Made by a program: the position numbers and the translations under genes
The notes under the pieces: model-generated
Told to the model about the DNA's origin: nothing
Database searches by the model: none
The model's input: the letters and a program-made list of their open reading frames with translations, nothing else
Shown: one piece after another, positions 4,794 through 55,625 of the stretch
Numbering within the stretch: position 1 is the stretch's first letter
How the letters are laid out: every line of letters starts with the position of its first letter
Source: Octopus sinensis
Lineage: Eukaryota
Length of the DNA stretch: 64,000 nucleotides
Direction: 5' to 3'
NCBI RefSeq assembly: GCF_006345805.1
Contig: NC_043006.1
Coordinates: 37,820,001 to 37,884,000 of the forward strand

Positions 4794-5334
4794 AGTCCAA
4801 AAAAATAGGGCGAATGCTGCCGTTGATTAGCTCCAAGAGGCCATCACCTCTAGCTAGCTATGTGACACATGAACCTGTGTCAATTATAACCTTCGAACAG
4901 GGGAGGTGAGCTGCTTCCCCTTGCTGGTCAGATTAGTTTCAGGATATTTGCCCCTTATCGATGTAGAGCAGCTGAACCAAGCAGGCGTCACTACTGACCG
5001 TCTGTTTGAAGTGTTATTTACCGCTGCCGTAGTCTCCTTTAGAAATATTAATATTTCCATTTTTGAAAACCAGTGGATGTATTCCATGGAATTTTGGTAA
5101 ATAATCCTTCGAACAGACGGTCAGTAGCAATGCCTGCTTGGTTAGGCTGCTGTATATTGATAAGGGGCAAATACCCTGAAACTAGTCTGTAGATGCTAGA
5201 CCAGCAAGGGGAAGTGGCTAACCTCCCCTGTTCGATGGTTATAATGGACACAGGTTCATGTGTCACATAGCTAACTAGAGGCGATGGCCTCTTGGAGCTA
5301 ATCAATGGCAGCATTCGTCCTATTTTTCTGGACT
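4794..5334. mobile_element. Inverted repeat (~230-bp arms, ~73-bp spacer) with a hammerhead motif in each arm; Penelope-like terminal-repeat remnant
   Basis: 4794-5022 is the reverse complement of 5096-5334; motifs at 4929-4967 (-) and 5151-5193 (+). Confidence 0.8.
5151..5193 (+). ncRNA. Type I hammerhead motif, U3-A8 core variant
   Basis: tgtata-TTGATAA-GGGG-caaata-CCCT-GAAAC-TA-GTC-tgtaga; stem III is the palindrome ACTAGT; GUC cleavage triplet. The mirror copy keeps tctaca, which pairs perfectly with tgtaga. Confidence 0.65.
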
Positions 5335-5779
5335 GCCATGTAGTAACTATTGGCAATAACTATTAATGTGTGTATATATATATATGATGGGATTCTTTCA
5401 GTTTCCATCTAACAAATCCACTTAAAAGCTTTCATTAGCACAAGGCTGTAGTAGACACGCATGCACGCGTGTACACACACACACACACACTATGGGCTTC
5501 TTTTATTTTCTATCTACCAACTCCACTGACAATGCTTTGGTTGGCCTGAGGCTATAACAGAAGACATTGTCCAAGGTGCAATGTGGTGGGACTGAACTCA
5601 GAATCATGTGGTTGGTATGCAAACTTCTTAACCACACAGCCCCACCCCCACTTGTGCCTATACATTCTTTATCGACAGAGAAAACAAGAGAGCCAACATA
5701 AATAAGAAGAAAAGAACATGTGTACAAAAATGTATGATATCAATAAAAAGGGAGATAGTCTATTCTTTTTATTTTTGCA

Positions 5780-6155
5780 TTCTTTTACTTGTTTCAGTCA
5801 TTTGACTGCGGCCATGCTGGAGCACTGCCTTTAGTCAAACAAATCGATCCCAAGACTTACTCTTTGTATGTCTAGTACTTACTCAATCGGTATCTTTTGC
5901 CAAACTGTGCTAAGTTATGAGGACATAAAAACACCAACTCTGGTTGTCAAGTGATAGGGGGGGCAACAAACACAGACACACACAAACATATATATACGAC
6001 AGGCTTCTTTCAGTTTCTGTCCATCAAATCCACTCACAAAGCTTTGGTCAGGCTGAGGCTATAGTAGAAGACACTTGCCCAAGGTGCCACGCAGTGGGAC
6101 TGAACCCAGAACCATGTGGTTGGGAAACAAGCTTCTTACCAAACAACCACATCTG
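5780..6155 (-). mobile_element. SINE family A (tRNA head, CORE-like ccttgggcaag, central microsatellite, ...gactgaaacaagtaaaaga tail)
   Basis: Near full-length match to the 58661-59063 copy; more than 20 full or partial copies in the window. Confidence 0.9.
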
Positions 6156-6289
6156 CACTTGGAAGCAAAAAATAAATAAAATCCTTTAACAACTTACATC
6201 AGTAGAATCATTTAGATATTTTGGAGAAAAAAAATAAAAAAAGGAATGTTTGTAAGAGAACAGGGTATTTCAATTAGATTGCAATGGAT

Positions 6290-8470
6290 TTTATAGGGAC
6301 ATTATATTGGGGAAAAAATCCCAATGAAGGACTGAGAAACATGAACAAAAACTGAAGCATGCAGGAGGGAATATGGAACAAACCATTCAATAGAATGAAA
6401 GAGAAGCATAATGGTTCAGGAGAGAAGCAAGAGAATATAAGTGCCACAACATTACTGAAATGGAATTTACCAGAACGTTAAAAACTGTAAGTAAATGGAA
6501 AAAGCTTTGGGATGGAACACATTTTTGGTTGAAGTACCTCACCAGTTTTATTTAGCTTTTGTTTTTATAAATATTTTTTTGAGTTCTAGGATCCATAAGA
6601 CTGATTATTCGGTTTCTATGGTGTATAAGTAATTGAGATCACAACATTACCCCTAAATTGGATGCAGGTCCGTTGCTGGATTCAATACTAGGAATTTTGA
6701 AAGGAGGGGGACATATCAACCTTAGTGCTTGACAGGTACTTTATTTTATTAACTCTGAAGTGATAAAAAGCAATGTCAACCTTAGTGGGATTTGAACTCA
6801 GAACATAAAGAGCCAGAAGAGAAGCCACTAAGCATTTTATCCGACTTGCTAATGGTTCTGCCAGTTTGTTGCCTTTACCAGATCGGTATCCATTAATATA
6901 TTGTGGTATCATTTAATGAAATGGTTAGTAGATCAGAATCAACACCTGATTAGCTGCTAGGTGAGGGGCAACATTAATTTCCAAACTCAAAAACACCAGA
7001 GGTCCCAAAATCATAGATAAATTACTTGTTTGCCAACAACATACAAAGCTCTCCCATCCATACTCTATAATAGGTAGATCACTCACCTATGACCAATAGG
7101 AAAACAGAAAGGATTGTTAGAAAGGGATATATTGTTGCAACGTGCAGCTACAAGCAAACCAAGCTATTATATAGAAAATAGTAAAACAGAAAACAAGCCA
7201 TTGCAAAGCTTGAATTGATTACCAAGAAAAAAGAAATTGACAGAATACACTATCATCTCAGAAATTAAACACACCATTGTCGTCATCATCATCATCACCA
7301 TTAGTTTCTTTTCTCTATACATGTCAGAAAATAACGAAGTACAAACTAAAATGTAACTGCACTGAAGAATAAGATTTAGATAATGACAAAACATCAGAAA
7401 AGGTTTAAAAAAAGAAGACAAAATGGATTTCTAAAATATATAGCAACGACAAAAATAAAATAAAGAAAAAAATCAAAGTAAAAACCAATCTATGATGAAT
7501 AGCATGAGAGTAAAAGCCAACAATGGTTTAAAGGTTTGGATTAAAATGTAACTGAAGGTGAGATTTTAATTATACAGGATGGAGCTTGGCCACAAAGAAC
7601 TACAAAAATAAGAAAACATGCAAAGATCAAGTGTAGTCTTTGTAGTCATGAGATTAATAGAAGTGATGACATCATCTCTGGCTGCCCAGCCTTGGAAAAA
7701 AATGTCTACATTCACAGACATGATTGAGTCAACAGTCAAAGCCATGGAGAATTATGCTATGAGCACAATGTGAAAATGGTTTTGGAGTGACATAGGAATG
7801 TACCAGACATTGTACTTGGCAATGAATTGAGACCCCCTTCAGTCATGACTGACCATGGGATTGCACCTGGAAAGTTACCCTCCCAGACATAAGTCTGGGC
7901 AAGGTTGTTTATGGAAGACCAGCAGTCATCCATGCATACCGGCCTCCCCTCTCCACGCCACCAGTGTTACCCAAGGGAAAGGCAAAGGCCGATACAGCTT
8001 GGCACCTGTGACATCGCAACTCATTTCTACAGCTGAGTGAACTGGAGCAATGTGAAATAAAGTGTCTTGCTCGAGAACACAACACGCAGCCCAATCCGGA
8101 ATTCAAACTCACAACCTCACGATCATAAGTTTGACGCTCTAACCACTGAGCCATGCGCCTTCACATACTTGGTAATGAATTAACCACAATGATCCAAATA
8201 TTCTTGTCCAGACTGACATAAGATCAAGGTAAACTGTTTGGACATAATAACCAACAACTGGAGAGGAAATGTTTTTATTCTGAGAGACATCTTAATCCCT
8301 TCTGGTCAAAACATTGCCCAAAATGAGACAGAAGCTGTCAAAATACAAAGATCTACAAATTAAATAAGTAGTGTTGGGCATGGATATAAGAAAATAATAT
8401 CAACAGCAATTGAGTCCTAGATATGTAGAATACACAAGATTACCCATAGAGATAGAATCATGAGCTCTGA
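6290..8470 (+). mobile_element. Highly decayed R4/Dong-like LINE (RT and RLE remnants) interrupted by SINEs
   Basis: Collinear remnants: FWLKYLT (~6525), ITCLPTTYKAL and a QKGC-like motif (~7020-7140), and a QTD...SKYKDLQI-like segment (~8210-8370). A related CCHC-region piece lies at ~4555-4620. Confidence 0.5.
7830..8163 (-). mobile_element. SINE family D (tRNA head tggctcagtggttagagcg ... gagtttgaattcc; CORE-like gagcaagacacttta)
   Basis: Box A/B present; related copies at ~30985-31392 (-), 56817-57113 (+) and 63235-63535 (-). Confidence 0.8.
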
Positions 8471-8674
8471 AATCCTCAGAAGAGCCAATCTGTGAGGGCT
8501 GCTGGAGATTGTGGCAGAAAGAAGAGGGAGACTTGCAGGAAAGGTTTTCTTACTGCCAGAAGAACAAACACCCAAGACAGATTAGTAAGATAACAGGGTA
8601 ACGCTGTTAGAAGGATAGTTGGGGTGGAAGATGGAAAGAAATACAAAAAAAAACACCCCTTTTTTTTAAACTTT

Positions 8675-9065
8675 TTATTTGTTTCAGTCATTTGACTGTG
8701 GCCATGCTGGAGCATCACCTTGAAGGAATTTAGTTGAACAAATTGACCCCAGGACTTATTTTTTCCTAAGGCCTAGTACATATTCTAACAGTCACTTTTG
8801 CTGAACCACTAAATTATGGGGATGTAAACACACCAACACTGGTTGTCAAGTGGTGCTGAAGGGAGAAACGCTGACACAAAGACATACACATAGATATACA
8901 CATGTATATAGACCACAGGCTTCCTTCAGCATCTGTCAAACAAATCCACTCACAAGGCTTTCATCAGCCTGAGGCTATAGTAGAAGACACTTGCCCAAGG
9001 TGCCATGCAGTGGGACTGAACCTGGAACCATGTGGCTGGGAAGTAAACTTCTTACCACACAGCCA
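8675..9065 (-). mobile_element. SINE family A
   Basis: Full head-to-tail match to the family consensus seen in the other copies. Confidence 0.9.
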
Positions 9066-9344
9066 GAATAAAATAAAATAAAAATAAAATATGATACTAT
9101 AAAGTGGAGAAATGAAATAAAAATAAAAGAGAAGAAAACAATATGGAATATACTAAAGGAAGTAGACTAGAAGGAGGTTTAATTTCTTGTAATAAGTTGG
9201 GGACACAGACAGTGTGTCTTTAGCCAGCTGGAGGAGATGTCTTCCTGGGGTTATAAACAACAGTAGCATCATCCCATATGGTCAGCCACATTTAGGTGGC
9301 AAATATACTTCATGATGTCGTGCTGCTACTATTTACATCTTGCT

Positions 9345-9740
9345 CATAGTCTTAATTGAGAAAGAAAACAAACTATGCTGGATCATAGATATAGCATGCC
9401 CAGCTGACAACAAGGTATGCGATAAGGAAGAAAGAAGAGTCGATAGATATGACAGGTTAGCTTGGGAAGTTAAGCAGTGTGGTCGATGAAAAAGGTAGCA
9501 GTAGTACCAATAATTGTTGGAGCCCTGGGAACAGTGAGAAAAAATCTCGAGAAGTACGTGGAACAAATAGGGGCTGCAATAAAGGTGGAGCACTTGCAGA
9601 AAACAGCACTGCTTGGAACCACTTGAATACTCCAGAAGGTGCTCGAAAAATAAGAGGTGTTACCTTAGTTCACTGGTAGTGAACAGCTAACACTGTAGTG
9701 TATCTCCAGTGTTAGAAGCTGTGCAAAGGCAATGATAATA
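9345..9740 (+). mobile_element. RLE-type LINE 3' end (R4/Dong-like) ending in an (AAT)n tract
   Basis: IVLIEKENKLCWIIDIACPAD.KV.DKEERRVDRY..LAWEV ... LQKTALLGT..IL..VL* followed by a short 3' UTR and AAC/AAT repeats. The same 3' end recurs at 11128-11305. Confidence 0.8.
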
Positions 9741-9782
9741 ACAACAACAATAATAATAATAATAATAATAATAACAACAATA

Positions 9783-10450
9783 GTGACAAATGCAGAATGT
9801 GTGGTGAGAGGGGTGAAACGGTATGGCACATTGTTAGCAATTGCCTAAAATTGGCACAATGCGAATACAAAAGACTCCATGACAATGAGGCAAGACTGAT
9901 CCATTGGGAACTCTGGAAATCATGGTCTACAAAGAGCAAAGACATGGCATCAGTAAGCCCCAGAAGGAGTCACCAAGGAAAAGAAATGCAAAATCCTGTG
10001 GGATGTAACGATCAAGAGTGATCATCTGACCAGACATCGGAAACCAGACATTATTGTGGTGAATAAAAAAGAAAGGACATGTATGATTATCAACATAGAA
10101 TTCCCCGGTGACAACAGGATCAATGTGTAAGAAGAAAAAATAAACAGCTACAATTATTTAAAGTGGGAGATACGAAGGTTGTGGTCAATGAAGAGAGTAG
10201 ACATGATACCAATAGTAATTGGTGCACTTGGAAGTATCAGGACTCAACTATCTACATGGCTGTAAAAGATCAGTGCAAGTGTGAAGGTAGAAAACTTACA
10301 AAAATCAGCATTGCTTGGAACTGCAAGAATTCTTTGCAGGGTTCTTGAAGCATGACCAGTAAAACAAGTGTCACCTTAGTCTGCTGGTTGTGGACAGCTG
10401 ACACTTTCCATCATAACCAGCAAAATAAGCTGTGCATTTTCATCTAATAA
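9783..10450 (+). mobile_element. RLE-type LINE 3' portion (CCHC knuckle plus PD-(D/E)xK endonuclease), R4/Dong-like
   Basis: DKCRMCGERGETVWHIVSNC...LAQCEYKRLHD; KILWD; RKPDIIVV; IPIVIGALG; LQKSALLGTARIL. Frameshifted and bounded by AAT repeats. Confidence 0.88.
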
Positions 10451-10634
10451 TAATAGGTTAGTTGAATCAGAGGTTAAAATAACCATCTAAGGGATAGAAG
10501 TATCCATTACACTAATGGTATATTACCTATATTTAACCATGGGCATACATATGCAAACAAGCAAAATAGTATGATTATAACCATGTTCAACTTTTCCCTT
10601 TTTCTTCTCTATGCTTTTCTTTATTTATTCTTCA

Positions 10635-10752
10635 CTCTGATGAAGCTCCTTGTTTCAGATCGGTTTTATTACCAAATACGATTAATATTTTTACATACTT
10701 TTGCATATCAATGGCAATACCATATAACATTGGAAGCAGAAACGGCTGTTAG
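10635..10752 (+). ncRNA. Degenerate type I hammerhead motif with long stem II
   Basis: ct-CTGATGA-agctcc...ggaagca-GAAAC-GGCT-GTT-ag; followed by AATAAA and a ttctccatttt tail shared with 18203-18270, 40366-40445 and 55466-55625. Confidence 0.5.
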
Positions 10753-11333: not shown

Positions 11334-11395
<62 letters not shown>

Positions 11396-12745: not shown

Positions 12746-14205
12746 ACTGGTATCGTCTACTATAGTCTCGGACCAACCAAAGCCTTGTGAGTGGATTTGG
12801 TAGACGGAAACTGAAAGAAGCCCGTCTTATAAGTATATATATATATATATATATACGTGTGTGTGTGTGTGTGTATTTGTGTGTCTGTGTTTGTCCACCC
12901 AACATCACTTGACAACCAATGCTGGTGTGTTTGCGTCCCCGTAACTTAGAGGTTCGGCAAAAGTGACCGATAGAATAAGTACCAGGCTTATAAAGAATAA
13001 GTCCTGGGGCCGATTTGCTCGACTAAAGGCGGTGCCCCAGTATAGCTGCAGTCAAATGACTGAAACAAGTAAAAGAGTAAAAATCAAATTGACCCCAGTA
13101 ATTATTACTTTTTAAGCCTGGTGTTCATTCTATTGGTCTCTTTTGTTAAACTGTTACATTAAGGGAACATAAACAAACCAGCACCAGTTATCAGGTGGTG
13201 GTGGTGGGAGTGAAACACAGTGACAAACACACACATACACATATGATATTTCCATCTACCAAATCCACCTACAAGTAGAAGACACTAACCCAAGGTGCCA
13301 CACAGTGAGATTGAACTGGAAGCCATGTAGTTGAGAAGCAAGCCTCTAACCAAACACCCACACTGAGGAATTTTAGTTTTGTGCTCAAATGTGATAATTT
13401 TTTTAGAAGTTATTAATTTTCTGAGAATGAATACATGTTTTTTGTTATGTATGTTACACCAGAAAAATAATGTATGATTATAAATGGTTGTTTTAAGAAA
13501 TCCACAAAATATTTTTCATGAAATAAAATAACAGAGAATAATGTCCAATTAAGAGACACTGATATTTTTATGGAGATTATTACATTAATGGTTTTAAAAA
13601 AAGGGTTACTATTGCAAAAAAAAAAAATATCCTTATTTGTTGTAATGTTTTTTCACCAAAATTGCTTTTATTACAAATAATACATTTGGTAAAATATTCC
13701 TAGAAATAATTTTCATGATAATAAAACTAATTTAAAACAATTTACATTTAAACTTTAATTTTTTTTTTGATAAATTTCGTTATTGTTACAGGTTTTTAAT
13801 TTTCTTCAAAGGTGACCTCTTTCTACTATAAACCTTTTGTGACAAAATAGAAGTATTTTTACACTAATGATGTCTAAGGAGTCACAAAAAAATTCAAGAT
13901 CCCAAGGGGTGGGTGGAGCCATGAGCTAAAATGGCTGTGAGTTAGTGTTCTGTATAATCAATATTTAGTGAAATAAAACAACTATGATTATAGTCTGCAC
14001 AACTGTCTCCATTCCCAAAATATATCTTAACATGTTCTCTTTTCTACTTCTTATCATAGGGAGTTTTCACACACCTGTACTTTGTGTGTGCGTGTATATA
14101 TATATATAACGGGAAGCTTTATGAAAATAAACAAAAGACGAAGACAGGTGGAATACAAACAAACAATTGTATTAGTATGGCGCTCAGGAATATAAATAAA
14201 ACAAG

Positions 14206-14243
14206 TCTTTTACGTTTCGAGCCTACGCTCTTCAACAGAAAGA
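14206..14243 (-). ncRNA. Minimal type I hammerhead motif, A6U variant, inside a short repeat (14110-14312)
   Basis: Reverse complement: tcttt-CTGTTGA-A-GAGC-gtag-GCTC-GAAAC-GTA-aaaga; 5-bp stem I and 4-bp stem II. Confidence 0.6.
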
Positions 14244-14834: not shown

Positions 14835-14957
14835 CACCTTTTTTCCTTCCTTGAGCGTCTGCTAATACTTTACATGTACCACATCCTTGTGTTGTTTTTT
14901 TGTGTTTGTTCTTCATTTTTTGGGATTTACTATATATACATATACATACATATATAT

Positions 14958-15257
14958 AATTGAAAAAAATTGGAGTCACCCCGAAGGGATATGGTCAGAC
15001 ATTTATTTTTTAATCACTACAATTGCTTCCACAAAATATAGTTCTTCAGGTATGCAGGTACTTGATTATGCAACCAGAACTATGGAGACAATATTTACAT
15101 ATTGCCTCAGGAAACACAACTAGATCTCATAATGCAGGGAAGAGTTTACATAATCAAGTACTTGCATACCTCGAGAACTACATTGCATGGAAACAATTGT
15201 AGTGATTAAGAAATAAATGCCCAACCATACTCCTTGTTGACTCCAATTTTTTTAATT
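14958..15257. repeat. Inverted repeat (~115-bp arms) carrying the 3' half of a hammerhead and AATAAA
   Basis: 14958-15075 is the reverse complement of ~15145-15257; GAAAC-AATT-GTA-gtgat at ~15190-15206, then aataaa. Confidence 0.7.
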
Positions 15258-15335
15258 ATCTATTCATACACGACTGATGTAATCAACTAGACCCCTCCCA
15301 CCAAATTTCAAGCCTTGTGCTTTTAGTAGAAAGGA

Positions 15336-19104: not shown

Positions 19105-19685
19105 GCATGTGGCTGTGTAGTTAGAAGCTTGTTTTGCAACCACATGGTTCCAGGTTCAGTCCCACTGCACAGCACCTAGTGAGTGGATTTGGCAGACAGA
19201 AACTGAAAGATGTCCAGAAACTGAAAGGCGGTGAGCTGGCGGAAACGTTAGCACACCGGGCGAAATGCTTAGCAGTATTTCGTCTGCTGTTACGCACTGA
19301 GTTCAAATTCTGCCAAGGTCGAATTTGCCTTTCATCCTTTTGGGGTCGATAAATTAAGTACCAGTTGCATACTGGGGTCGATGTAATTGACTTAATCCCT
19401 TTGTTTGTCTCCTCTATGTTTAGCCCCTTGTGGGCTATAAAGAAATAAAAAACTGAAAGATGTCCATTGTGGATATATTTGTGTGTCTTCATGTCTGAGT
19501 TTGTCCACCCGCCACCACTTGACAACCAGCGTTGGTGTGTTTACGTCTCCATAAATTAGCAGTTTGGCAAAAAAACTAATAGAATAAGTACCAGGCTTAA
19601 AAAGAAAATTGTACTGGGGGTCAATTCTTGAAGGTCGTGCTCCAGCATGGCCACTGTCTAATGACTGAAACAAGTAAAAGATAAA
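19105..19685 (+). mobile_element. SINE family A with a nested family B SINE (19225-19447)
   Basis: aactgaaagatgtcca is duplicated at 19201-19216 and 19451-19466 around the inner element. Confidence 0.8.
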
Positions 19686-19935
19686 AGTTCACAGAAAAGG
19701 TACAGATCTTTTTCTTTCTTTTTACTTGTTTCAGTCATTTGACTGTGGCCATGCTGGAGCACTGCCTTTAGTCGAGCAAATTGACCCCGGGACTTATTCT
19801 TTGTAAGCCCAGTACTTATTCTATCGGTCTCTTTTGCCGAACCGCTAAGTGATGGGGACGTAAACACACCAGCATCGGTTGTCAAGCAATGCTAGGGGGA
19901 CAAACACAGACACACAAACACACACAGACACACAA

Positions 19936-19978
<43 letters not shown>

Positions 19979-21469
19979 ACAGGCTTCTTTCAGTTTCCGT
20001 CTACCAAATCCACTCACAAGGCATTGGTCGGCCTGGGGCTATAGCAGATGTGTTGATTCTTATTTAAGCCCTTCACTCCCAATCAAGCATTTTCAATGAC
20101 TCTTCTCTACTGTTCTAATCCTGTCTTTCTTTTCTATTTCTCTCCGGTTGGATCCATGCTTTACAGCTCTACCTCACACCCTGAAGTAAGACCTTGCTCT
20201 CTCAGGTTCATTGGTCCCGAATTGTCATTAATGCTTCTGTAACTTTGCTTTTTCTCTAGGCAGCAGGTGTCAGCTCTAAGCAAGCCCATTTCTATCTCTG
20301 GGAAGAGGTAATCCATTAGTGTGGCCTCTATACTTTCATCTGTTAAGTATGGGAGACCCTACCAGGAGCTTGTGGTGGATACCTATTCTTTGGAGTTTAT
20401 TAATTTTCGAGCAAAAAGCAGCAAAACTCTGAAATCCAAAGCTGACCAATACTAAGGACACAAGAAACAAGCATCTCATGGAGAGGACTGAGATGGTTGA
20501 AGATCTATTGCAAGGCAACTGCAACATTGTTAGCAAGGCATAGCTGCCATGGCTGCTTCGAACAAAACAAGAGATCATATGGAGATAATTTAAAAACAAA
20601 ACAATTGATAGATTTGAGGAATCAAACAGTAGAATAGAATTATGTTGGAAAAGTGATAGACATGTTTGTGAAAGGCTGAAATATTATAGGATAGGTTTTC
20701 CTATCAGAAACCAAAGAAGGTGCTTTTGGGACTAATTTAGCTAATTGGAGCTGAAAAGAAAAACTGAATACAGCCATAGAGGTCAACTATTCCAAAATCA
20801 GTCCTGATGAGAATACTGATGGACAACAGCTTGAAAACTTGCAAGTCCTCTGCTTTGGTTATGATTCAGCTTTATACAAATAATTACTGGTACACTTGAC
20901 TATGTAAGTGAATGTTTGAAAGGGAATCCAGAAAAGTTAGGGTTTTCAAGCGGAGAAAGTGACATGGTTAACACGCACCTTGCAAATACAGTCTGCAGGC
21001 AGAACAATAAAAATATGCAAAAACTTTCTAAAGTTTAGAATGTAATACATTGGATAACATAACGTTATCCAAGTCAAACAATGGAATTTTACACAGGGAA
21101 TCTGGCAACAGAAAGAATTCAAATAGAAAACAACAACATACATACATGCATATACATATGTACATATATGTGCATGTTGTGTATGCATATATATTTATGT
21201 TATGAATCTCTTTCTCTCTCTCTCTCTCTAAAATCTACAAGGTTTTTTCCAATTCTCTCTCTCTGTTTACTTTCTCTTATTCCTTTCTGTTGAAGAGCTT
21301 GAAACGTAAAAGACTTTTTCATTTTCCCAAGTGTCAAACTAATAAACTAATACACCTGCTTGTTCTTCATACACCTGTCTTTCTCTTTTTCCTATAAATT
21401 TCAACTATGTATGTATGTATGTATGTATATATGTATGCATGTGTGTGTGTATGTGTGTGTGTATGTATA

Positions 21470-28032: not shown

Positions 28033-28070
28033 TCTTTTACGTTTCGAGCCTACACTCTTCGACAGAAAGA
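28033..28070 (-). ncRNA. Minimal hammerhead motif, A6U family
   Basis: Reverse complement: tcttt-CTGTCGA-A-GAGT-gtag-GCTC-GAAAC-GTA-aaaga. More decayed relatives at 21283-21313 (+) and ~56447-56484 (-). Confidence 0.55.
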
Positions 28071-28919
28071 GACACAGAAAAAACAAGGAGAGAAATAAAT
28101 GTGTGTAATGGCTAACGATCTATCATGGTGACTAGGCATGGCGACTAGGCATGGCTACATGGTAAGAAGCTTGCTTGCCAACCACATGGTCTGGGTTCAG
28201 TCCCACTGCATTGCATGTTGGGCAAGTGTGTGTGTGTATGTTTGCGTGTCTGCATGTTGGGCAAGTGTCTTCTACTATAGCCTCAGGCCAACCAAAGCCT
28301 TACCAAGGACCTATAATCCATTAAGGGATGTTTACATCCTAGTTCTCTGCTTTTTCCCAGTGTTCAGTGAAAAGCTAAATGCATTAGTTTTGTATTGATG
28401 GATGTATTTAAATTATTTATGAATGAGAAAAAGAAGAAAATAGAGAAATTGACACATAGACACCAGTTTATTCAAAGATATTCAAATCAATATAATATGA
28501 AAGTCTTATCCCTACAGACATTTCCATCTAATTAATTCAATTAGAGAAATTAGATTAAAACAAATTAATTTAAAATTTTCAGATTTGAACAATTTAATTG
28601 GGTAATTCATCAGGGGAGAATTTACCAGAAGGAGTTACATTCCAATGTGTTGGTCGACTTTTGTATATATATATATTTACATGTGTGTATCTGTGTATGT
28701 CCCTCAACCATCACTTGACAACCGATGTTGGTGTGTTTACATCCCCATAACTTAGCAACTTGAAAAAAGAGACCAATAGAGTAAGTACTAGGCTTGGAAT
28801 AAGTCTTGGGGCTTGATTTTTTCGACTATGACCCTTTAAGGCAGTGCTCCAGCATGGATCCAGTCAAATGACTGGAGCATGTAAAACAATAAAAGAGTAA
28901 AAGAATACTTCTAGATATT

Positions 28920-29080
28920 GTTCTATATTTAAGTGATGAGGAATTATGTACATTATTTACATTTGATGGATATTTGTTCTCATCTTGTTCGTTGTTAACA
29001 CAACATTTTGGCTGATATACCCTCCAACCTTCATCAGGTGTCTTGGGGAAATGTCAAACCTTGGTTCTCATTCTTAAGGT

Positions 29081-29129
<49 letters not shown>

Positions 29130-29287
29130 TAATAATAATAATAACAACAACATTGAAAAATACCTTAGGAATGGGAATTCCGGTTCAAAATTTTCCCAAA
29201 ACACCTGAGGAAGGCTGGAGAGTATATCAGCTGAAACATTGTGATAACAACAAACAAGATGAGGACAAATATCCGTCAAATGTAAAT
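28920..29287. mobile_element. Inverted pair of hammerhead-bearing repeats around (AAT)n, flanked by a 16-bp direct repeat
   Basis: Arms ~28950-29083 and ~29159-29290; motifs at 28998-29041 (-) and 29201-29244 (+); aatacttctagatatt at 28904-28919 and 29288-29303. Confidence 0.85.
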
Positions 29288-29649
29288 AATACTTCTAGAT
29301 ATTTAACTAAAAATCTCCACAGGCTCAAGTAAAACATAATATTTCACCCACAATATCCCCAAAGATTCATTTGCTTTTAAAGTTTTAAATCAATATGTTC
29401 TTAATATATGTGTGTCTGTATTGATAAATGTCTGTACATTAATATATGTTCTATTCACCCATTCAGGCATGAGTGAGGATTTGTGCATTGGAACTTACAT
29501 GTAGGCGTAGGTATACGTATGTGGTTAGGAAGCTTGTTTGTCAACAATGAGTTTCAGTTTCAGTTCCACTGTACAGTACCTTGGGTTGGGCTAATGCCTT
29601 GTGAAGGAATTTAGTAGACGGAAACTGTGTGGAAGCCTATCATGTATGT

Positions 29650-30366: not shown

Positions 30367-30401
30367 GTTTCCGACGAAGAGCTCCGCTCGAAACGTTAAA
30401 C
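30367..30401 (+). ncRNA. Minimal hammerhead motif, U4C variant
   Basis: gttt-CCGACGA-A-GAGC-tcc-GCTC-GAAAC-GTT-aaac. CpGs are intact, suggesting a young copy; the host repeat 30292-30490 sits between (TA)n tracts. Confidence 0.6.
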
Positions 30402-32617: not shown

Positions 32618-32690
<73 letters not shown>

Positions 32691-32747
32691 TTAGTGAATT
32701 GAAGAAATGGAGTTGAACGAAGATTGAACAGAAATCGTTTTATTGCA

Positions 32748-32827
32748 TTCTACACGTGTTTCGAAAGGCACAATTTACCAAATTCTGATTGAATAAGGAG
32801 ACCATATTGTGTCTTTCTCTTCAGGAA
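32748..32827 (-). ncRNA. Type I hammerhead motif (left arm)
   Basis: Mirror image of 33669-33748. Confidence 0.75.
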
Positions 32828-33668
32828 GAAATAGGAAATCCGTTGGAAAAAACAAAAACAGAACAGAGGCGGAGCAAAACAAATCGAACGAGGCTCCTAA
32901 GAGCCCATGGCCAAACTGTTTATCAATGGAAAACTGGTGGTGGGTGCGTTGAAGGTTTTAACGGGTCAGGCAGCGGTCATTCCGGTGGGTGGGAGCACGG
33001 GGTGCTTAGATGTTCTTTGTGACCGAGACTAAAGTTCTGACTATTTAAAGAATATTAGGTGTATTATATGGGGCGAGACAAAATCTACTTAGAAACATGT
33101 GTGTGTGTACTGTTCTATGTGTTTGTATGTGCGTTTGATCACGTGGCCATCAGTTGGTAAACAGCCCTGCACAATGGTCACTGCTGTAAAATCCGTCGGG
33201 TGGCAGAAAAAAATTTTTTATGTGTGTGTGTGTTCGTCTAAACCTGCCTTGTCAAAGAAACCCCCCGTCGTCAAGACAAACCCCCATTCGAATGGGGGTT
33301 TTACAGCAGTGACCATTGTGCAGGGCTGTTTACCAACTGACGGCCACGTGATCAAACGCACATACAAACACATAGAACAGTACACACACACATGTTTCTA
33401 AGTAGATTTTGTCTCGCCCCATATAATACACCTAATATTCTTTAAATAGTCAGAACTTTAGTCTCGGTCACAAAGAACATCTAAGCACCCCGTGCTCCCA
33501 CCCACCGGAATGACCGCTGCCTGACCCGTTAAAACCTTCAACGCACCCACCACCAGTTTTCAACATACATTGATAAACAGTTTGGCCATGGGCTCTTAGG
33601 AGCCTCGTTCGATTTGTTTTGCTCCGCCTCTGTTCTGTTTTTGTTTTTTCCAACGGATTTCCTATTTC

Positions 33669-33748
33669 TTCCTGAAGAGAAAGACACAATATGGTCTCCT
33701 TATTCAATCGGAATTTGGTAAATTGTGCCTTTCGAAACACGTGTAGAA
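33669..33748 (+). ncRNA. Type I hammerhead motif (right arm)
   Basis: ttc-CTGAAGA-GAAAGaCACAAT...ATTGTGcCTTTC-GAAAC-ACGT-GTA-gaa; canonical core, 11 of 12 bp in stem II, palindromic stem III ACACGTGT; AATAAA at 33752. Confidence 0.78.
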
Positions 33749-33969
33749 TGCAATAAAACGATTTATGTTCAATCTTCGTTCAACTCCATTTCTTCAATTC
33801 ACTAATAATATTAAAATTCAATTATCCGCACCAACGCACGGTTGCAACACCATATGGTTGTACCTCCAACCGTGTTGTCTTCTGCTGTGATTTTTGCTAC
33901 CAAGGTATCGGTTAAACTTTTGATTAATCTGCAACAAGATTATTCATCTTTCTATTTCACAAAATATAT

Positions 33970-34159: not shown

Positions 34160-35450
34160 CGAGGGACGTTCAATAAGTAATGCCCCTGACCCACTTGCAC
34201 TTGATTGATCTTGCTGAAATTTTGCATGTGCAATCATTTATATCTCTATAGAGTAAGTGGCAAATTACAGCTCTGAATTAATTGTGGTTTCTGATTTACA
34301 GGTGTTTGAACCGAGTCAAGTGTGAAATGGAGCCTGTTGAGTGTCGAGCAGTGATCCGGTTTTTGTATTTGAAAGGACGCACACCACGGGAGACTTTTGA
34401 TGAAATGAAAGTAACTTATGGTGATGATGCCCCATCATATGACCTTGTAAAACACTGGCATCGTGAATTCAAACATGGTCGGAACTCTGTGGAAGCAGCT
34501 CCCAGATCTGGTCGCCCCCTTCTGCCATTGATGAGGCATCTGTCCGTCAAGTTGAGGCTGCCATTTTGGAAGATCGACGCATAATTATTCGCCAAATAGC
34601 CCATGAGGTCAAGATTAGTACCGGGTCTGTGGAAACTATCATTCATGACCATTTGCATATGCAAAAGGTGTCTGCCAGATGGATTCCCAGGCTGCTCATG
34701 CCTTTCCAGAAGCAAGAACGCGTCGAGTGCTCGAGGGTGAATTTGGAGATGTGCCAAGAAGATGAGTCAAAATTTTTCAAAAGACTGATTACACAGGATG
34801 AAACCTGGGTCCATCACGATGATCCAGAGACCAAAGCCCAGTCAATGCAGTGGAAGCACCGTGACTCACCCCCTCCAAAGAAGGCAAGGGTGCAGCCCTC
34901 CGCTGGCAAGGTCATGCTCACAGTCTTCTGGGACCAGGACGGAGTAGTGATGACAGATTTCCTGGCAAAGGGTACCACAACTACAGGAGCCTATTATGCT
35001 TCACTTTTGAGGAAATTAAGAGAAGTTATCAAAATCAAGAGGCGGGGCAAGATCAGCAAAGGCATCCTCCTCCTGCAGGACAATGCTCCGGTCCACAACT
35101 CGTTTGTCGCCAGATCAGAAGCACAGGCGTATGGCTATGAACTCCTCCCCATCCCCCCTACTTTCCTGATTTTGCACCCTCTGATTTTCACCTCTTCCCA
35201 ATCATGAAGTTGTTTTTGAAAGGAAAGCGTTTCCCAGATGATGCAGCTTTGATTTCTGAAGTCACGTTGAGGTTGGAGGACCAAGCTGGGTTCTTCTACA
35301 AAAACGGTCTCCAGAGCCGCATCAAATGATGGGCGAAATGCGTAACTCGGGGTGGTTCATATGTAGAAAAAGACTAATAACTGTGCCAAGTTTCGTTGCT
35401 CTACTGCTATGGGAAGTGGGTCAGGGGCATTACTTATTGAACGCCCCTCG
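34160..35450 (+). mobile_element. Full-length (1291 bp) mariner transposon, DD34D
   Basis: 37-bp TIRs (34160-34196 and 35414-35450, one mismatch) with TA on both sides. Confidence 0.97.
34327..35377 (+). pseudogene. Mariner transposase with two frameshifts (~34519, ~35150) and a late premature stop
   Basis: PRSGRP, WIPRLL, TQDETW, QDNAPVH, PPYFPDFAPSDFHLFP and GSYVEKD*; 34 residues separate the second and third catalytic Asp. Confidence 0.95.
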
Positions 35451-39894: not shown

Positions 39895-39938
39895 ACACCT
39901 GATGAAGGCTGGAGGATATATCAGCTGAAACGTTGTGT
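39895..39938 (+). ncRNA. Minimal type I hammerhead motif (same family as 28998 and 29201)
   Basis: acac-CTGATGA-A-GGCTG-gaggatatat-CAGCT-GAAAC-GTT-gtgt; canonical core and 4-bp stem I. Confidence 0.72.
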
Positions 39939-48237: not shown

Positions 48238-48272
<35 letters not shown>

Positions 48273-48299
48273 CATAGATAGATAGATAGATAGATAAAC

Positions 48300-48344
<45 letters not shown>

Positions 48345-48498: not shown

Positions 48499-48540
<42 letters not shown>

Positions 48541-49143: not shown

Positions 49144-49374
49144 CAACGGGTTCTCAACCATTTTTAACCTATGGGCCCGCTTTAATTCCCATTTTGCTCG
49201 GGTGGACCATTCGATGTTTAAAAAAATCCTACAATATCTTAACAATTTAATATGTTTAGGAATTGTATAAAAACAAATCGTTAAAATATTTTGTGTCTGG
49301 CAGAAGCACATAGATTTTAACAACAAAATTTTGTGTATCCCAACAATCATATCGACCCCTGTTGAAAACCACTG
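49144..49374. mobile_element. Old hAT-type MITE
   Basis: Degenerate TIRs caacgggttctcaac and gttgaaaaccactg; the 8-bp flanks match only 5 of 8. Confidence 0.5.
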
Positions 49375-50440
49375 ATCTACAATTTCAGTCGCAAAGTAGT
49401 GGTCGACTTCCACGCGGCGGAATCGAACTCGGATCTCCTTTATCAGGATCTCTTTCATTATGCCTACTGCTGTACACGCGCGCGCGCGCGCAATCTACTT
49501 GTAAGCGTGCTTTGACAAGAAGCCAGATATATGTGAGCGAGTATATAGAATGTTTATCTTTCCTTTTGCGAGTGTGCAATGAGACAGCGCGCGTGCGTGT
49601 GTATGCGTGTGTACGTGCATCGTGTATTGGCAGTAAACCCGAAACTTTGTTTTGTTTTAGATCGATAAACATTAACGAGATCAACACCAGTAATATACGA
49701 GATACTTTTATCGATCATGAAAAGATAAAAGCCAAAAGTAAACCCCACCAAGAATCGAACTCAGAATGTTAGGAATCGAAGCGAAATATGAGGGTTTTTT
49801 TTCATCCTTATGTCTCTCTATTTGCACTACAAGGGGGGAAAAAAACAATAACAAAAAACCCCCAAAAATCTCGTGATTTTTTTTTTACAATCTGAGTTGA
49901 AATTTTGCTGAGGTCAACTTTGTCTGTCACCCCTCCGGGGTCGATAAAGTAAAGCAGAGTCGATTGCATTGATTAGCCCCCTCCATTCAAAACTACTGGC
50001 CTTGTGTCTGAGTCACAAATCATTATATACGCATCTCTTATGATTGCAGAACTAAATTCAAAGACGTTCCAGCCGTAACCATCCGTCCTAACTTTATGTT
50101 AAACAAACGTATCTTTTTTAACGACAGTAAGGTGTGATTTACAGACAAGCTGTTTCTTCTACAATGTCGACAGATCACCTTCGGTCTCCCTTGGCAGCTC
50201 ATGTTGTTTAGCCTCAGCTCAGTCTGGGTTGAGCAGATCTATTTGATCAGATCTATCCCAACCTTTTCCTGGTAACTGTCTTTCCGATTCTGAAGTTATC
50301 CAACGTGTCCCTTCTCATGAATTACACATTACCATCTCAAGGTGATAAACGTGTAATTTGAGGTAAAATTTGGCTATTTCTAGCTAGCAATTCCTCCATT
50401 GGCTCAAGGTGGAGTTCATGTAAAATCAAGTGTGTGTACA

Positions 50441-50471
<31 letters not shown>

Positions 50472-52746
50472 AAGAAAAGAATAGAAACTGGCTTAAAATT
50501 TACCCCATTTGTGGGAGTGTTTTTTCCATACATAATTCATACTTAGAACTAGCCCTGAATTGGATCTATGGGTTAAATTACATTTGGTACTTACATTTGG
50601 TATCTACAATATCCTACCAGCACTTTATATCATAATAGTTATTTTACCTCACTGTGAGCCCTATGTTACGGTAACTAGCCATTTCTGGTGTCCTACATGT
50701 TGATGTGCCTAGATTCTATTGAACCCTATAACTAATCTATCATAGGTGCAGGAGTGGCTTTGCGGTAAGAAGCTTGCTCCCCAACCACATGGTTCCAGGT
50801 TCAGTCCACTGCCTGGCACCTTGGGCAAGTGTATTCTACTATAGCCTTGGGCTGACCAAAGCCTAGTGAGTGGATTTGGTAGACAACATCTGAAAGAAGC
50901 TCGTTGTATGTGTGTGTGTGTATTTGCCTGTCTGTGTTTGTCCCCCCACCATCACTTGACAACCAATGGTGGTGTGTTTACGTCACTGTAACTTAGTGGT
51001 TTGGCAAAAAGAGACCAATAGAATAAGTACTAGGCTTACAAAGAATAAGTCCTGGGGTCAATTTGTTCGACTAAAGGCAGTGCTCCAGCACAGCCGCAGT
51101 CAAGCGACTGAAACAAGTAAAAGAGTATCTATCTATTTGTCTGCCTATCAACACACACACGCATGTACATACCAGGTGTGTGAGGTCAGGTAAGCTTTTT
51201 TTTTTTTTTAATTATATATTTAACATATACATGGCAGACTGACATAAAGACACACATGCCACATGTACATGGGCGTCTGTAGTAGATGTATGCATGTGTA
51301 CAAGACATGTTTCTGTCTGTTTATATTTAGCGTGTGCTGTGTGATGTGTTTAACATGCACTAGTTTTGTAAAATATAGTGTATGTCCTGTGTGTGTGTGT
51401 GTGTGTGCGCGCTTACCAACCACATGGTTCCGGGTTCATTCCCACTGCGTGGCACCTTGGGCAAGTGTCTTCTACTATAACCTCGGGCCGACCAAAGCCT
51501 TGTGAGTGGATTTGGTAGATAAAAACTGAAAGAAGCCTGTCATATGTATATATGTATATGTGTATATATATGTGTGTGTGCATGTTTGTCCCCCCCCCCC
51601 AGCATCACTTGACAACTGATGGTGGTGTGTTTTCGTCCCCGTAACATTAGCTGTTCAGCAAAAGAGACTGATAGAATAAGTACTAGGCTAACAAAGAATA
51701 AGTCCTGGGGTCAATTTGCTCAATTAAAGGTGGTGCTCCAGCATGGCTGCAGTCAAATGACTGAAACAAGTAAAAGAGAGTAAAAATATATATATGAATA
51801 TATATATCATCAACATCATCATCATCATCATTTAATGTCCGTTGTCCATGCTGGCGTTGGTTGGACTGTTTGATTAGGACAAGTAAGCTGAGGGAGCTAC
51901 ACCAGGTTCCAGTCTGATTTGGCATGGTTTCTACAGCTGGATGCCCTTCCTAATGCCAACCATTCTGAGAGTGTAATGGGTGCTTTTACGTGCCACCAGC
52001 ATGGTTGCCATTTGCATGACACCAATATCTGACATGACAATTTCACTAGGCTTCATGGGTCTTCTTCTCAACCATGGCATATTATGAAAGGTCTTGGTCA
52101 GATGTCATTGCCTCCATGAGGCCCAACACACGAAAGGTGCTTTTTACATGACACCAGCATCAGCCACTTTGCCTCCATGAGGCTGACACCAGCATTAACC
52201 ACTTTGCCTCCATGAAGCTGAAACCAGCATCAGCTACAAATACTATTTGCATCAATTTTTATTGCTGCTGCTTCTGTTGTTGTTTAGATACAGGTCTACC
52301 TTGGTTGAACAAATCTATGATCAAAAAGATTCCAGCTATGACAATCCAGTCTTTTTAGGGATATCGTTTCATTTTCTTTTCCTTCTTCAAGTTGGAAAAG
52401 TGTAATCTATGAAAAATTTAGCTGCTATTTCATGCAACCTGTTGGCTTAACTACCAATCATATGTTCTTAACTACCAATCATATGTGCATGTGTCTCATA
52501 ATTTCACATCCACTTTTCCATACTTGCATGAATCAAACAAAATGTGTTGAGGCAAATTCTCTACAGTTAGATGCTCTTTCTGTCACTAACCTTCACCTGT
52601 TGCCAAGCATGGAAATATTTCCCCATGGCCAGACAGGTCCTTCATGGAGGACTGGAAAACAAACAACATACTTGTACAATGGTGATGCTCATTTACAACC
52701 ACCACATGATTTCAAGAGGAAGCCCCCCCACACACACACACATACA

Positions 52747-52788
<42 letters not shown>

Positions 52789-53384
52789 GGGCTTCTTTCA
52801 GTTTCAGTGTAAGAAATCCACTTTTTAAAGACAAGACAAGAACCCAAGACAACATGACAGGGAAGAAAACATCTTCACCAAATAGTTCTGCATTTGCCTG
52901 AATGTATTCTGTACAATGTGTGTGTGCGTGTGTGTGTATACACACATACACACACACATATATAGGCACAGGAGTGGCTGTGAGGTAAGTAGTTTACTTA
53001 CGAACCACATGGTTCTGGGTTCAGTCCCACTGCGTGACACCTTGGGCAAGTGTCTTCTATTATAGCCTCAGACCAACCAAAGCCTTGTGAGTGGATTTGG
53101 TAGACAGAAACTGAAAGAAGCCCATCATGTGCGTGTGTGTATGTGCATGTGTGTATGAGTGTGTGTATGAGTGTATATATGTTTGTGTTTCTGTGTTTGT
53201 CCCACCAACATCGCTTGACAACCAATGCTGGTGTGTTTACATCTCTGTAACTTAGCAGTTCGCCAAAAGAGAGCAATAAGTACTAGGTTTACAAAGAATA
53301 AGTCCTGGGTCGATTTGCTTGACTAAAGGCAGTGCTACAGCATGGCCACAGTCAAATGACTGAAACAAGTTAAAAAATAAAAGA

Positions 53385-53429
<45 letters not shown>

Positions 53430-53430
53430 G

Positions 53431-53847
53431 CATTGTGTCTGGGGAGAATCATTCTCTTTTAGTACCTTATTATTTAACACACACACTGGTTCAATTTCCA
53501 CTCATTTATTTATTTATTTTTCCTAAAATTTTCGTTGCATCTTGCAATCTTTTCAATAGTTGTTGACTCTGTCTGTTATCCAAACTGCATTCTTTTTGTT
53601 TGTTTGTACGTTCATGTGCATATATGTGAAGGTGTGTGGCCTGGTGGTAAGTCTGTTGTGCATGAACCTACAACCAAACAAACAGAATGCAGTTTGGAAT
53701 AACAGGCAGAGTCAACGACTACTGAAAAGTTTGCAAGGCCCAACGAAAATTTTAGAAAAAAATAAATAAGTACATGAGTGGAAACTGAACAAATGAGTGT
53801 GTTAAATAATAAGGCAATAAAAGAGAATGACTCTCCCCAAACACAAT
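53431..53847. mobile_element. Inverted repeat (~190-bp arms) with degenerate hammerhead motifs at 53523-53559 (-) and 53719-53755 (+)
   Basis: Arms 53431-53620 and ~53657-53847. Left arm reverse complement: cta-TTGAAAA-GaTTGCA-aga-TGCAAC-GAAA-ATTT-tag, followed by AATAAA. Confidence 0.75.
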
Positions 53848-54250
53848 AAAATATGCTTCAACACACAAATTCACATTTGAGGAGAACTACTGAGTCAAGT
53901 ACATCAAAATCAAATCAAATCACAATCAAATGGAAATTGTAGTTGTGATCCCCGTGCCAGTGGCACATAAAAAGCACCATGTGAATGTGGTCAATGACAG
54001 CTCCCTCTGGCCCCTGTGCCGGTGGCATGTAAAAGGCACCATCTAATTGTGATCGATGGGAGCTCCCTCTGGCCCCTGTGCCGCAGGCACATAAGGATCA
54101 GCACCCACTACATTCACGGATTGGTTGGCATTAGGAAGGGCATCCAGCTGTAGAAACACAGGCAGATCAGAGTGGAACCTGGTGCAGTCTCCTGACTTCC
54201 CAGACCCCAGTCATCCCGTCCAACCCATGCTAGCATCGAAAACGGATGAA

Positions 54251-55435
54251 CCCTTTCGTTACTATATTTCTGACCAAAATACACCCCTCATGAGTTTCAA
54301 TTAAATTCTAAAATAATCACGAATCTAGGCTTGTTTCATTAAATAACTGTAACTTTTTTACTTAACATATTAATGTGATATTTAGAACATAATTAAAGAA
54401 AGGGTTCTTAATCAATTCCATTGCGTAACTTTTGTCTCAAAGTGACTTTAATTACAGGTAAATCCAGGTAAATTGAGCAAAAGGTAAAAATATTAAAATT
54501 TTGTTTAAACATCACCATAGAAAATGAATCATCAGCTAATATTCAAATGGGTATGCAACAAAATTTTGATAAAGAAGAATTGTGCACATTACTATATCAT
54601 CAGTTGAATTTAATGCACAACAGGTGTACCATAAAGGTGGAATAAACTGAAATATTGGAATCCACCGTAAGTTTGACCGAACTAAAGAAATCGGTCAAAA
54701 AATAATATACGGCTCTGGTTATGGTATGGAAGTGATAAATTCCAGACCACATCGTTCCCTAGGCCATGCTGACTAACATTATTTTCCCTGTATAAAAACT
54801 AAATCCACGCAGTACCCAGTATTTGCTTCACAAATTTCCCGAAATTTGAATCCCCCACTTTGTGTTTGTTTACAATCTGCGTAAGTTTGTTTCCGCATTG
54901 ATCGCTTCAAACAATAAATTCCAGACCACATCATACCTTAAGCCATGCTGACTAACATTAGTTTCCCTGTATAAAAACTAAATCCACGCAGTACCCAGTA
55001 TTTGCTTCACAAATTTCCCGAAATTTGAATCCCCCACTTTGTGTTTGTTTACAATCTGCGTAAGTTTGTTTCCGCATTGATCGCTTCAAACAATAACTTC
55101 CAGACCACATCATACCTTAAGCCATGCTGACTAACATTAAATCCACAACAGTACCCAGTATTTGTTTCACAAATTTTCCAATTCGGAATCAATGCTTGAT
55201 AACATGAAACTCCTATCTATTTTCAAAGTTGAAGAAAAATCGATGCCGAAAAAAATCTCCCAAAATTCAGGGAATTAAAATTACACGTCTATCTTTGTAC
55301 AAAACTGTAGATGAACTCTTTACAAAGCATAATGACGTGTTTTCACAAATGTACTAAAGAGATTTGCTCTGATATTCTCATTTAAATATGAATAGGTAAA
55401 TTCGGACGGGTTTGGGCGGTTTGGTATCAAAAGGG
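54251..55435. mobile_element. Non-autonomous TTAA-targeting (piggyBac-type) element nested in a family C SINE tail
   Basis: TIRs ccctttcgttac and gtatcaaaaggg (10 of 12 match); TTAA at 55436-55439; the SINE tail resumes as acgatggtgatgat. Confidence 0.8.
54735..55180. repeat. 179-bp tandem repeat (~2.4 units)
   Basis: Units start at 54735, 54914 and 55093; the third is internally deleted. Confidence 0.92.
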
Positions 55436-55465
55436 TTAAACGATGGTGATGATGATGATGATGCA

Positions 55466-55625
55466 TTTAAATTAAGCTGAAAATGGAGAAATCTTGATGA
55501 ACAACAATTGACTATCATCAATTATTATTTTTTAATACAAAAAGTTTTCTATTAAAATATAATAATTGATGATAGTCAATTTGTTTATTGATCAAGAATT
55601 TTCTCCATTTTCTGCTTAATTTAAA
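55466..55625. repeat. Short inverted repeat of the ttctccatttt-type 3' terminus
   Basis: ttaaattaagctgaaaatggagaaatcttgat...attatt versus aataat...caagaattttctccattttctgcttaatttaa. Confidence 0.75.

What the first reader, a model, noticed from the sequence alone, without database searches (positions are those of the whole stretch)
4794..55625. Six inverted repeats share one polarity: hammerhead/poly(A)-signal ends always point outward
Seen: 4794-5334, 28920-29287, 32684-33965 and 53431-53847 carry a hammerhead on the minus strand in the left arm and on the plus strand in the right arm. 14958-15257 (3' half-motif plus AATAAA) and 55466-55625 (3' tail only) have the same orientation. The six belong to different sequence families, so the architecture arose repeatedly. 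They look like MITEs but are head-to-head retroelement termini. Inference: both target ends were primed on the element's 3' end (twin priming or fold-back). Inverted terminal copies are known for Penelope elements, but a strict polarity across families points to a mechanism.
Basis: partly seen in the sequence, partly recalled or inferred. Interest (0 to 1): 0.75.

Follow-up and report, generated by a model that had tools for sequence, protein, structure and literature searches.

The report
Penelope head-to-head ends, two-site priming
The six mirror-image repeats are short insertions of Penelope-like jumping genes in their already published back-to-back layout; one arm nearly always ends at a near fixed point and the other at a far one, which likely means both cut ends of the chromosome were copied from the element's RNA.

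Summary
All six inverted repeats are real and point their 3' ends outward. Genome-wide the polarity holds: 93 divergent versus 2 convergent neighbours among 169 loci of the six families, and 12 versus 0 adjacent pairs in an unbiased 1.4 Mb. The polarity is in print: head-to-head is the usual inverted arrangement of Penelope-like elements (PMC3846280, PMC8557442). The architecture is rebuilt at each insertion; it did not evolve six times. Not found in the papers searched: every family has a short and a long 3' end, and 61 of 66 adjacent pairs join one of each (solo copies 37 long, 36 short). In 24 of 64 pairs neither arm contains the other, so plain fold-back fails. One family has 8-16 bp target duplications round the whole palindrome (13 of 18). 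Best reading: both target nicks prime on one RNA at two internal sites and the cDNAs are end-joined. Earlier notes of this scan reached the same reading on other DNA, in this and other genomes.

The parts
4794..5022 (-). F1 inverted arm; outer end cut about 30 nt before the family's short end
5019..5367 (+). F1 sense arm ending at the short end; decayed hammerhead-like motif 5157-5187. F1 also occurs as a 361-bp tandem unit
14952..15074 (-). F5 inverted arm, short end, flanked by (TA)n
15081..15279 (+). F5 sense arm with first 22 nt of the 140-nt tail; decayed long-stem hammerhead-like motif 15106-15201
28904..28919 (+). left copy of the 16-bp target duplication of F2
28920..29083 (-). F2 inverted arm, long end (41-nt tail)
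29080..29290 (+). F2 sense arm, short end; (AAT)n then minimal hammerhead-like motif 29205-29240
29288..29303 (+). right copy of the 16-bp target duplication of F2 (3 nt shared with the element end)
32683..33290 (-). F3 inverted arm, short end, reaches about 90 nt further 5' than its partner; in (TA)n
33296..33965 (+). F3 sense arm, long end; hammerhead-like motif 33672-33745, AATAAA 33752-33757, 152-nt tail 33814-33965 (matches the 5' leader upstream of the 904-aa ORF in full-length copies)
53432..53628 (-). F4 inverted arm, short end
53670..53876 (+). F4 sense arm with first 29 nt of the ~63-nt tail; decayed hammerhead-like motif 53722-53752
55465..55550 (-). F6 inverted arm, short end; no hammerhead (it lies further 5' in longer copies)
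55542..55709 (+). F6 sense arm with first 82 nt of the ~168-nt tail

Best explanation
Each palindrome is one insertion of a Penelope-like element end in which a long-ended and a short-ended arm sit head-to-head, likely because both 3' ends of a staggered cut prime reverse transcription on the same RNA at two fixed internal sites. Inferred steps: the RT/GIY-YIG protein (probably a dimer) nicks both strands of an AT-rich target roughly 8-16 bp apart. One target end starts at the far site (tail included), the other at the near site. Both cDNAs run toward the RNA 5' end and stop independently. Their 3' ends are joined by microhomology or with short templated inserts, and fill-in gives a target duplication round a palindrome whose 3' ends must face outward. 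When one end is not primed, or its product is lost, a solo copy with either end results. F1, F5 and F6 show no linked ORF here and are likely non-autonomous or merely truncated.
For: Shown here: polarity 93 divergent to 2 convergent among 169 loci; 12 to 0 adjacent in 1.4 Mb taken blind; 5 to 0 by ORF orientation among 150 hits (read from the table). Long+short pairing in 73 of 80 classifiable pairs, 61 of 66 adjacent pairs without the window's own (p = 1e-13 against 0.5), while solos are 37 long, 36 short. Both full-length F3 loci fetched are also long+short. The short arm reaches more than 30 nt further 5' in 24 of 64 pairs, the long arm in 18, neither in 22; L007 has arms that do not overlap at all. 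Non-simple target duplications of 8 nt or more in 13 of 18 F2 pairs against 0.7% for mismatched flanks. In F3, 7 of 8 long pairs have no closer copy than their own partner; minor alleles are shared 19 times and discordant 12 times within pairs, against 48 of 508 between loci. Of 20 F3 junctions 9 overlap by 2-5 nt, 3 by 0-1, 8 carry inserts; chance of 2 nt or more is 17%. From PMC11167929: the anole Poseidon protein cleaves and extends both strands, is predicted to be a dimer, and starts at two internal RNA sites that bound the tail.
Against: PMC11167929 reports no difference in start site between top and bottom strand in vitro, so the assay does not itself show one site per strand. Seven of 80 pairs are long+long or short+short and 11 more have a truncated end. 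The long/short cut-offs were set after viewing the ends, and partly deleted tails count as long. Allele sharing could come from gene conversion; it is absent in F2, F4 and F5 (0 private shared variants in 32 pairs) and F2 arms are no closer to each other than to other copies (0.074 vs 0.076). Target duplications cannot be read in the (TA)n-targeting families (4 of 53 pairs in F1, F3-F6). A tail could also be trimmed from one arm after synthesis. F2 5' extents are blurred by (AAT)n; without F2 the nesting counts are 17, 13, 16.
Confidence: 0.62

Rival explanations
1. Both target ends are primed, but on two separate RNA molecules held by a dimer, or at the same site with one tail trimmed afterwards by the endonuclease.
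For: Fits polarity, target duplications and independent 5' extents. PMC8557442 ascribes the tail to endonuclease resolution of the intermediate. F2, F4 and F5 show no private alleles shared by both arms.
Against: Two free RNAs give no reason for 61 of 66 long+short pairs unless the dimer is asymmetric. F3 arms share subfamily and private alleles. In vitro the tail bounds are RT start sites.
Confidence: 0.2
2. Fold-back: the first cDNA, or an antisense RNA as proposed in PMC3846280, primes on itself at a local palindrome and copies itself back.
For: Published proposal based on junction palindromes. 40 of 64 pairs are nested or near-symmetric. The window's F3 junction holds a perfect 24-nt palindrome at 33278-33301. 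Predicts shared alleles between arms.
Against: A self-copy cannot hold sequence that its template lacks: in 24 of 64 pairs the short arm has the longer 5' part while the other has the tail; L007 arms are disjoint; in L321 a 336-nt inverted arm copies the 3' end while adjoining the 5' end of a 3.7-kb arm. It gives no reason for the inverted arm to stop at the fixed short site.
Confidence: 0.1
3. Two independent insertions: a second copy homes into the 5' end of the first, or convergent pairs are purged by selection.
For: PMC11167929 notes cutting within the element's own pLTR; arm divergence in old families is close to family divergence.
Against: One target duplication encloses both arms in 13 of 18 F2 pairs; ends pair long+short; junction positions vary widely; SINE pairs show no loss of convergent pairs (7 divergent, 6 convergent within 1 kb); 78 of 169 loci have an adjacent partner, an excess that purging cannot make.
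Confidence: 0.05
4. MITEs: DNA transposons with terminal inverted repeats.
For: Palindromic shape, short size, TA-rich flanks.
Against: 74 of 169 copies are single arms; 5' ends and junctions vary; the two ends are asymmetric; duplications vary from about 6 to 16 nt; linked ORFs are RT and GIY-YIG type, no transposase seen.
Confidence: 0.01

Closest known systems
EN+ Penelope-like element insertions with inverted pLTR and tail (Adineta vaga Pen2a, PMC3846280; overview PMC8557442; D. virilis Penelope, PMC2377424)
   Same: Inverted 5'-truncated copy at the 5' end, head-to-head; tail at one end; target duplication round the unit; hammerhead in the end repeat; AT-rich or (TA)n targets.
   Different: Tails here are about 40-170 nt (41 F2, ~55 F1, ~60 F4, 140 F5, 152 F3, ~165 F6) rather than 30-40. 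Those papers call the tail optional or often at one end and give no pair statistics in the passages read; PMC3846280 proposes self-priming, which the non-nested pairs contradict.
Poseidon of Anolis carolinensis (PAc) in vitro, PMC11167929
   Same: Two fixed 3' ends bounding a tail that is the start of the next unit; both strands cut and extended; predicted dimer.
   Different: The main text does not connect the two start sites with inverted copies, and saw no strand difference in start site.
Hydra clade of C-terminal EN+ PLEs (PMC8557442, section 11) for family F3
   Same: RW and DKT motifs, CxxC and CxH round the conserved E and N, no CCHH, hammerhead, (TA)n target (motifs read by eye).
   Different: The CxCX5C linker seen in homologues P0001 and P0002 is missing, and a Ser/Asn-rich stretch of about 150 aa sits there; no tree was built.
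L1 twin priming (recalled; no paper on it read here)
   Same: Second target end primes internally on the same RNA, giving an inverted 5' piece and a microhomology junction.
   Different: In L1 the pieces barely overlap and the second site is variable; here the second site is fixed and the arms usually overlap, so a palindrome results.
Animal non-LTR retrozymes (bioRxiv 10.64898/2026.07.22.740005) for family F1
   Same: Short non-coding tandem unit (361 bp) with a type I hammerhead-like motif.
   Different: F1 is mostly dispersed, with PLE-type two ends and head-to-head pairs; circular RNA not tested.

Membership tests
EN+ Penelope-like elements | Single ORF with PLE-type RT and GIY-YIG endonuclease linked to the end repeat | tested here: met
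   F2: RT PF00078 E 2.8e-8 upstream of the terminus in L066. F4: GIY-YIG PF01541 E 2.9e-5 in L098, collinear to the terminus over 1145 nt. F3: intact 904-aa ORF in L321, L322; no Pfam hit, 109 homologues, motifs as in the Hydra clade.
EN+ Penelope-like elements | Same, for F1, F5, F6 | tested here: inconclusive
   No linked ORF within the 30 loci of each family; the GIY-YIG ORF in L053 is separated from F1 by (TA)n.
EN+ Penelope-like elements | Fixed 3' ends with a tail, variable 5' truncation | tested here: met
   All six families.
EN+ Penelope-like elements | Inverted 5'-truncated copy at the 5' end (head-to-head) | tested here: met
   93 of 169 loci; 2 convergent, both more than 1 kb away.
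EN+ Penelope-like elements | Type I hammerhead motif in the end repeat | tested here: met
   Descriptor scan, sense strand only, F1-F5; weak for F4 and F6. No Rfam match. Cleavage not tested.
EN+ Penelope-like elements | Target duplication or AT-rich/microsatellite target | tested here: met
   F2 13 of 18 non-simple duplications; F3 19 of 19 pairs in (TA)n.
EN+ Penelope-like elements | RT placed in the PLE clade by phylogeny | not tested
   No tree built; clade names rest on motifs compared with PMC8557442 or recalled (Poseidon-like F2, Neptune-like F4).
MITE / TIR DNA transposon | Symmetric termini, constant structure, fixed-length duplication, matching transposase | tested here: not met
   no transposase among the ORFs seen in the loci (output partly cut); the genome was not searched for one.
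Non-LTR retrozyme (F1) | Tandem units each with a complete hammerhead; circular RNA | tested here: inconclusive
   Direct copies 361 bp apart in L038, L041, L052; circular RNA not testable here.

The most novel reading that the evidence does not exclude
Penelope-like elements of at least three clades integrate by a built-in double priming: one RNP uses two fixed start sites on one RNA, one for each target strand, and the trailing RT displaces the leading cDNA. Inverted ends, the one-sided tail and the target duplication would then be three marks of one step, replacing the published self-priming model.
Probability: 0.5. Interest if true: 0.72.

Novelty: new member of a known kind. Interest (0 to 1): 0.5.

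Why it matters
How Penelope-like elements, the sister group of telomerase, make their tandem and inverted ends is stated to be unresolved (PMC8557442). The long+short rule ties the two start sites seen in vitro to the genomic layout and gives a sharp test in an existing assay. In practice, such palindromes are dense here (146 inverted repeats with a gap up to 400 bp in 1.4 Mb, at least 18 with an outward hammerhead) and are easily mis-annotated as MITEs or microRNA hairpins.

Tried and rejected
Rfam found no hammerhead and only chance microRNA-hairpin matches. No RNA holder listed; only contigs were offered, which cannot show strand or starts, so no reads were laid. Long-read fold-back artefact rejected: arms differ by up to about 15%, have asymmetric ends and target duplications. 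ARAGORN at a lowered threshold did not call the F2 tRNA-like head on the expected strand, so it rests on A/B boxes seen by eye. [quoted passage not shown] The blind sample stopped at 1.4 Mb.
Full report
Setting. The window is G000:C10:37820001-37884000 in a 2.72-Gb animal genome. Earlier notes call the host a cephalopod; I did not test that.

Observation. All six are inverted repeats of unrelated families. After masking simple repeats the window holds three more fold-backs. Two are pairs of an abundant tRNA-headed SINE lying tail-to-tail, 12750-13362 and 19450-20048. The third, 57398-57526, is a short family without a detectable hammerhead. Hammerhead-like motifs were scored with my own descriptor (core motifs recalled): sense-strand scores of 15 or more in 16, 30, 30, 5, 11 and 0 of 30 copies for F1, F2, F3, F4, F5, F6; none antisense; 2 of 180 reversed nulls. 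F6 has a long-stem motif upstream of the part present in the window (8 of 30 at a lower cut-off). Rfam does not report them.

Polarity test 1, family loci. The 30 best genomic matches of each right arm were fetched. I dropped 11 of 180 as the same insertion seen twice or a segmental duplicate. Of 169, 93 have an inverted partner on the 5' side (78 within 150 bp, 13 further, 2 running off the locus, one of them, L116, a doubtful low-complexity match), 2 have an inverted copy on the 3' side, both more than 1 kb away, 74 are solo and 2 run off the edge. The six window loci are among the 93; the partner of L015 was entered by hand from L016. L083, counted as solo, has an inverted ORF fragment directly 5'.

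Polarity test 2, blind sample. Seven blocks of 200 kb at round coordinates of C1-C7 gave 146 inverted-repeat loci with gaps up to 400 bp. At score 15 or more, 18 have an outward hammerhead and 1 an inward one, the middle pair of two adjacent head-to-head units; five of the 18 belong to two composites; reversed nulls gave 1 and 5 of 155. By family, 109 copies of hammerhead-bearing repeats form 12 divergent and 0 convergent pairs within 150 bp, and 17 and 2 within 1 kb, both convergent cases inside composites. The SINE control gives 7 and 6 (3' part, 225 copies) and 12 and 9 (head, 228 copies) within 1 kb. Independently of hammerheads, the F3 endonuclease region gave 150 hits with five opposite-strand pairs under 4 kb apart, all divergent.

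What the families are. Each has fixed 3' ends and variable 5' truncation. F2 joins an RT ORF followed by a GIY-YIG-like stretch seen by eye. F4 joins a GIY-YIG domain. F3 has intact 904-aa ORFs with the motifs given for the Hydra clade, no Pfam match and 109 homologues; its 152-nt tail is the leader just upstream of the start codon. F1 is a 361-bp unit, sometimes tandem; F1, F5 and F6 show no linked ORF in these loci.

What is known. PMC3846280 (passages and the whole Discussion) says head-to-head is the most frequent inverted arrangement, notes junction palindromes, a tail optional at one inverted pLTR and 8-10 bp duplications, and proposes self-priming on an antisense template. PMC8557442 (passages and section 11) says an inverted 5'-truncated copy often adjoins the 5' end, the tail is often at one end only, and the mechanism is undefined. 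PMC2377424 (passages) shows the same in D. virilis. PMC11167929 (parts 1-2 of 4, the whole main text) shows both strands cut and extended, a predicted dimer, and two internal RT start sites bounding the tail. Of bioRxiv 10.64898/2026.07.22.740005 I read part 1 of 5. No supplements were opened.

Mechanism tests. (1) End pairing: of 91 pairs with both ends in view, 73 are long+short, 4 long+long, 3 short+short and 11 have a truncated end; solos are 37 long, 36 short, 1 truncated. Adjacent pairs without the window's own give 61 of 66 (p = 1.3e-13 against 0.5). Cut-offs were chosen after viewing the ends. (2) Nesting: among 64 long+short pairs with gaps up to 60 bp, the short arm reaches more than 30 nt further 5' in 24, the long arm in 18, neither in 22; without F2, 17, 13, 16. 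In the 24, each arm holds sequence the other lacks; L007 arms do not overlap. A copy made by folding back cannot do this. (3) One event: 13 of 18 F2 pairs have non-simple duplications of 8-16 nt round both arms, against 0.7% for mismatched flanks; the other families give 4 of 53, most flanks being (TA)n. (4) Template: in young F3, 7 of 8 pairs compared over 290 nt or more have no closer copy than their partner; minor alleles are shared 19 times and discordant 12 times within pairs, against 48 of 508 between loci (sites are linked and some are alignment artefacts). Private variants shared by both arms number 15 in 68 pairs, all in F1, F3 and F6, none in F2, F4, F5, against 252 singletons. This favours one template but gene conversion is not excluded. 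(5) Junctions: of 20 F3 junctions, 9 overlap by 2-5 nt, 3 by 0-1 and 8 carry 3-40 nt inserts, some copied from nearby; chance overlap of 2 nt or more is 17%. This looks like end joining (comparison with polymerase-theta joining is recalled), not a constant palindrome.

Reading. The simplest account is priming of both target ends on one RNA at the near and far sites, independent stops, and end joining of the two cDNAs. The layout and counts are shown; the enzymatic steps are inferred from them and from the anole assay. Against it: the assay saw no strand preference in start site, 7 of 80 pairs break the rule, and trimming of one tail after synthesis would look alike.

Novelty. The polarity is known and the six are new members of a known kind. 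The pairing rule and the failure of nesting were not found in eight paper searches, which miss most subscription papers. I had reached this reading; the earlier scan notes seen afterwards report it in this and other genomes and are not independent support.

Noticed in passing
L062-L090, about 230-150 nt upstream of the F2 end; window 29084-29154 holds only the (AAT)n part: F2 carries a tRNA-like head with A- and B-box-like motifs (seen by eye), then (AAT)n, then the hammerhead; in L066 it lies between the ORF end and the terminus. Possible RNA polymerase III promoter; also in earlier notes.
   Followed up: partly
L321:1361-4075 and L322:1282-3996: Intact 904-aa F3 ORF with Hydra-clade motifs but a Ser/Asn-rich stretch in place of the CxCX5C linker, recalling the N-rich inserts of Adineta elements; L322 has a changed RT catalytic-motif neighbour (YPDD versus YRDD).
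   Followed up: partly
F3 loci, family position -230 to -238 (window about 33575-33583): 5' ends pile up here in 9 of 26 anchor arms (anchors had to reach -224, so partly selected); far from the hammerhead cut site, possibly the RNA start.
   Followed up: no
window 57398-57526; L323-L333: Short family F7 with no hammerhead; 9 of 11 fetched loci are fold-backs (6 were picked as such), mostly one long and one short tail by eye; a solo copy starts with a B-box-like motif.
   Followed up: partly
window 12750-13362 and 19450-20048: Two tail-to-tail pairs of the abundant tRNA-SINE (about 40 fragments in the window), gaps 5 and 38 bp.
   Followed up: partly
window 14211-14238 (-), 28038-28065 (-), 30371-30397 (+), 39899-39934 (+): Further hammerhead-like motifs: two abundant minimal families, one with a variant core, and a solo F2 copy.
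   Followed up: no
block of L241-L260, positions 114091-116717 (G000:C4 about 50114091-50116717): Two young head-to-head units side by side, giving four hammerheads in alternating orientation.
   Followed up: no
L127, L128, L167, L075, L056: Long arms that stop 7-13 nt 5' of family position 0, close to the short start site in F5, F6 and F2; might record a trailing RT stalling at the other primer. Too few to test.
   Followed up: no
window 34190-34930 (L001:2378 onward): 246-codon open frame resembling a mariner-type transposase fragment (recalled motif, not scanned), just right of F3 and unrelated to it.
   Followed up: no
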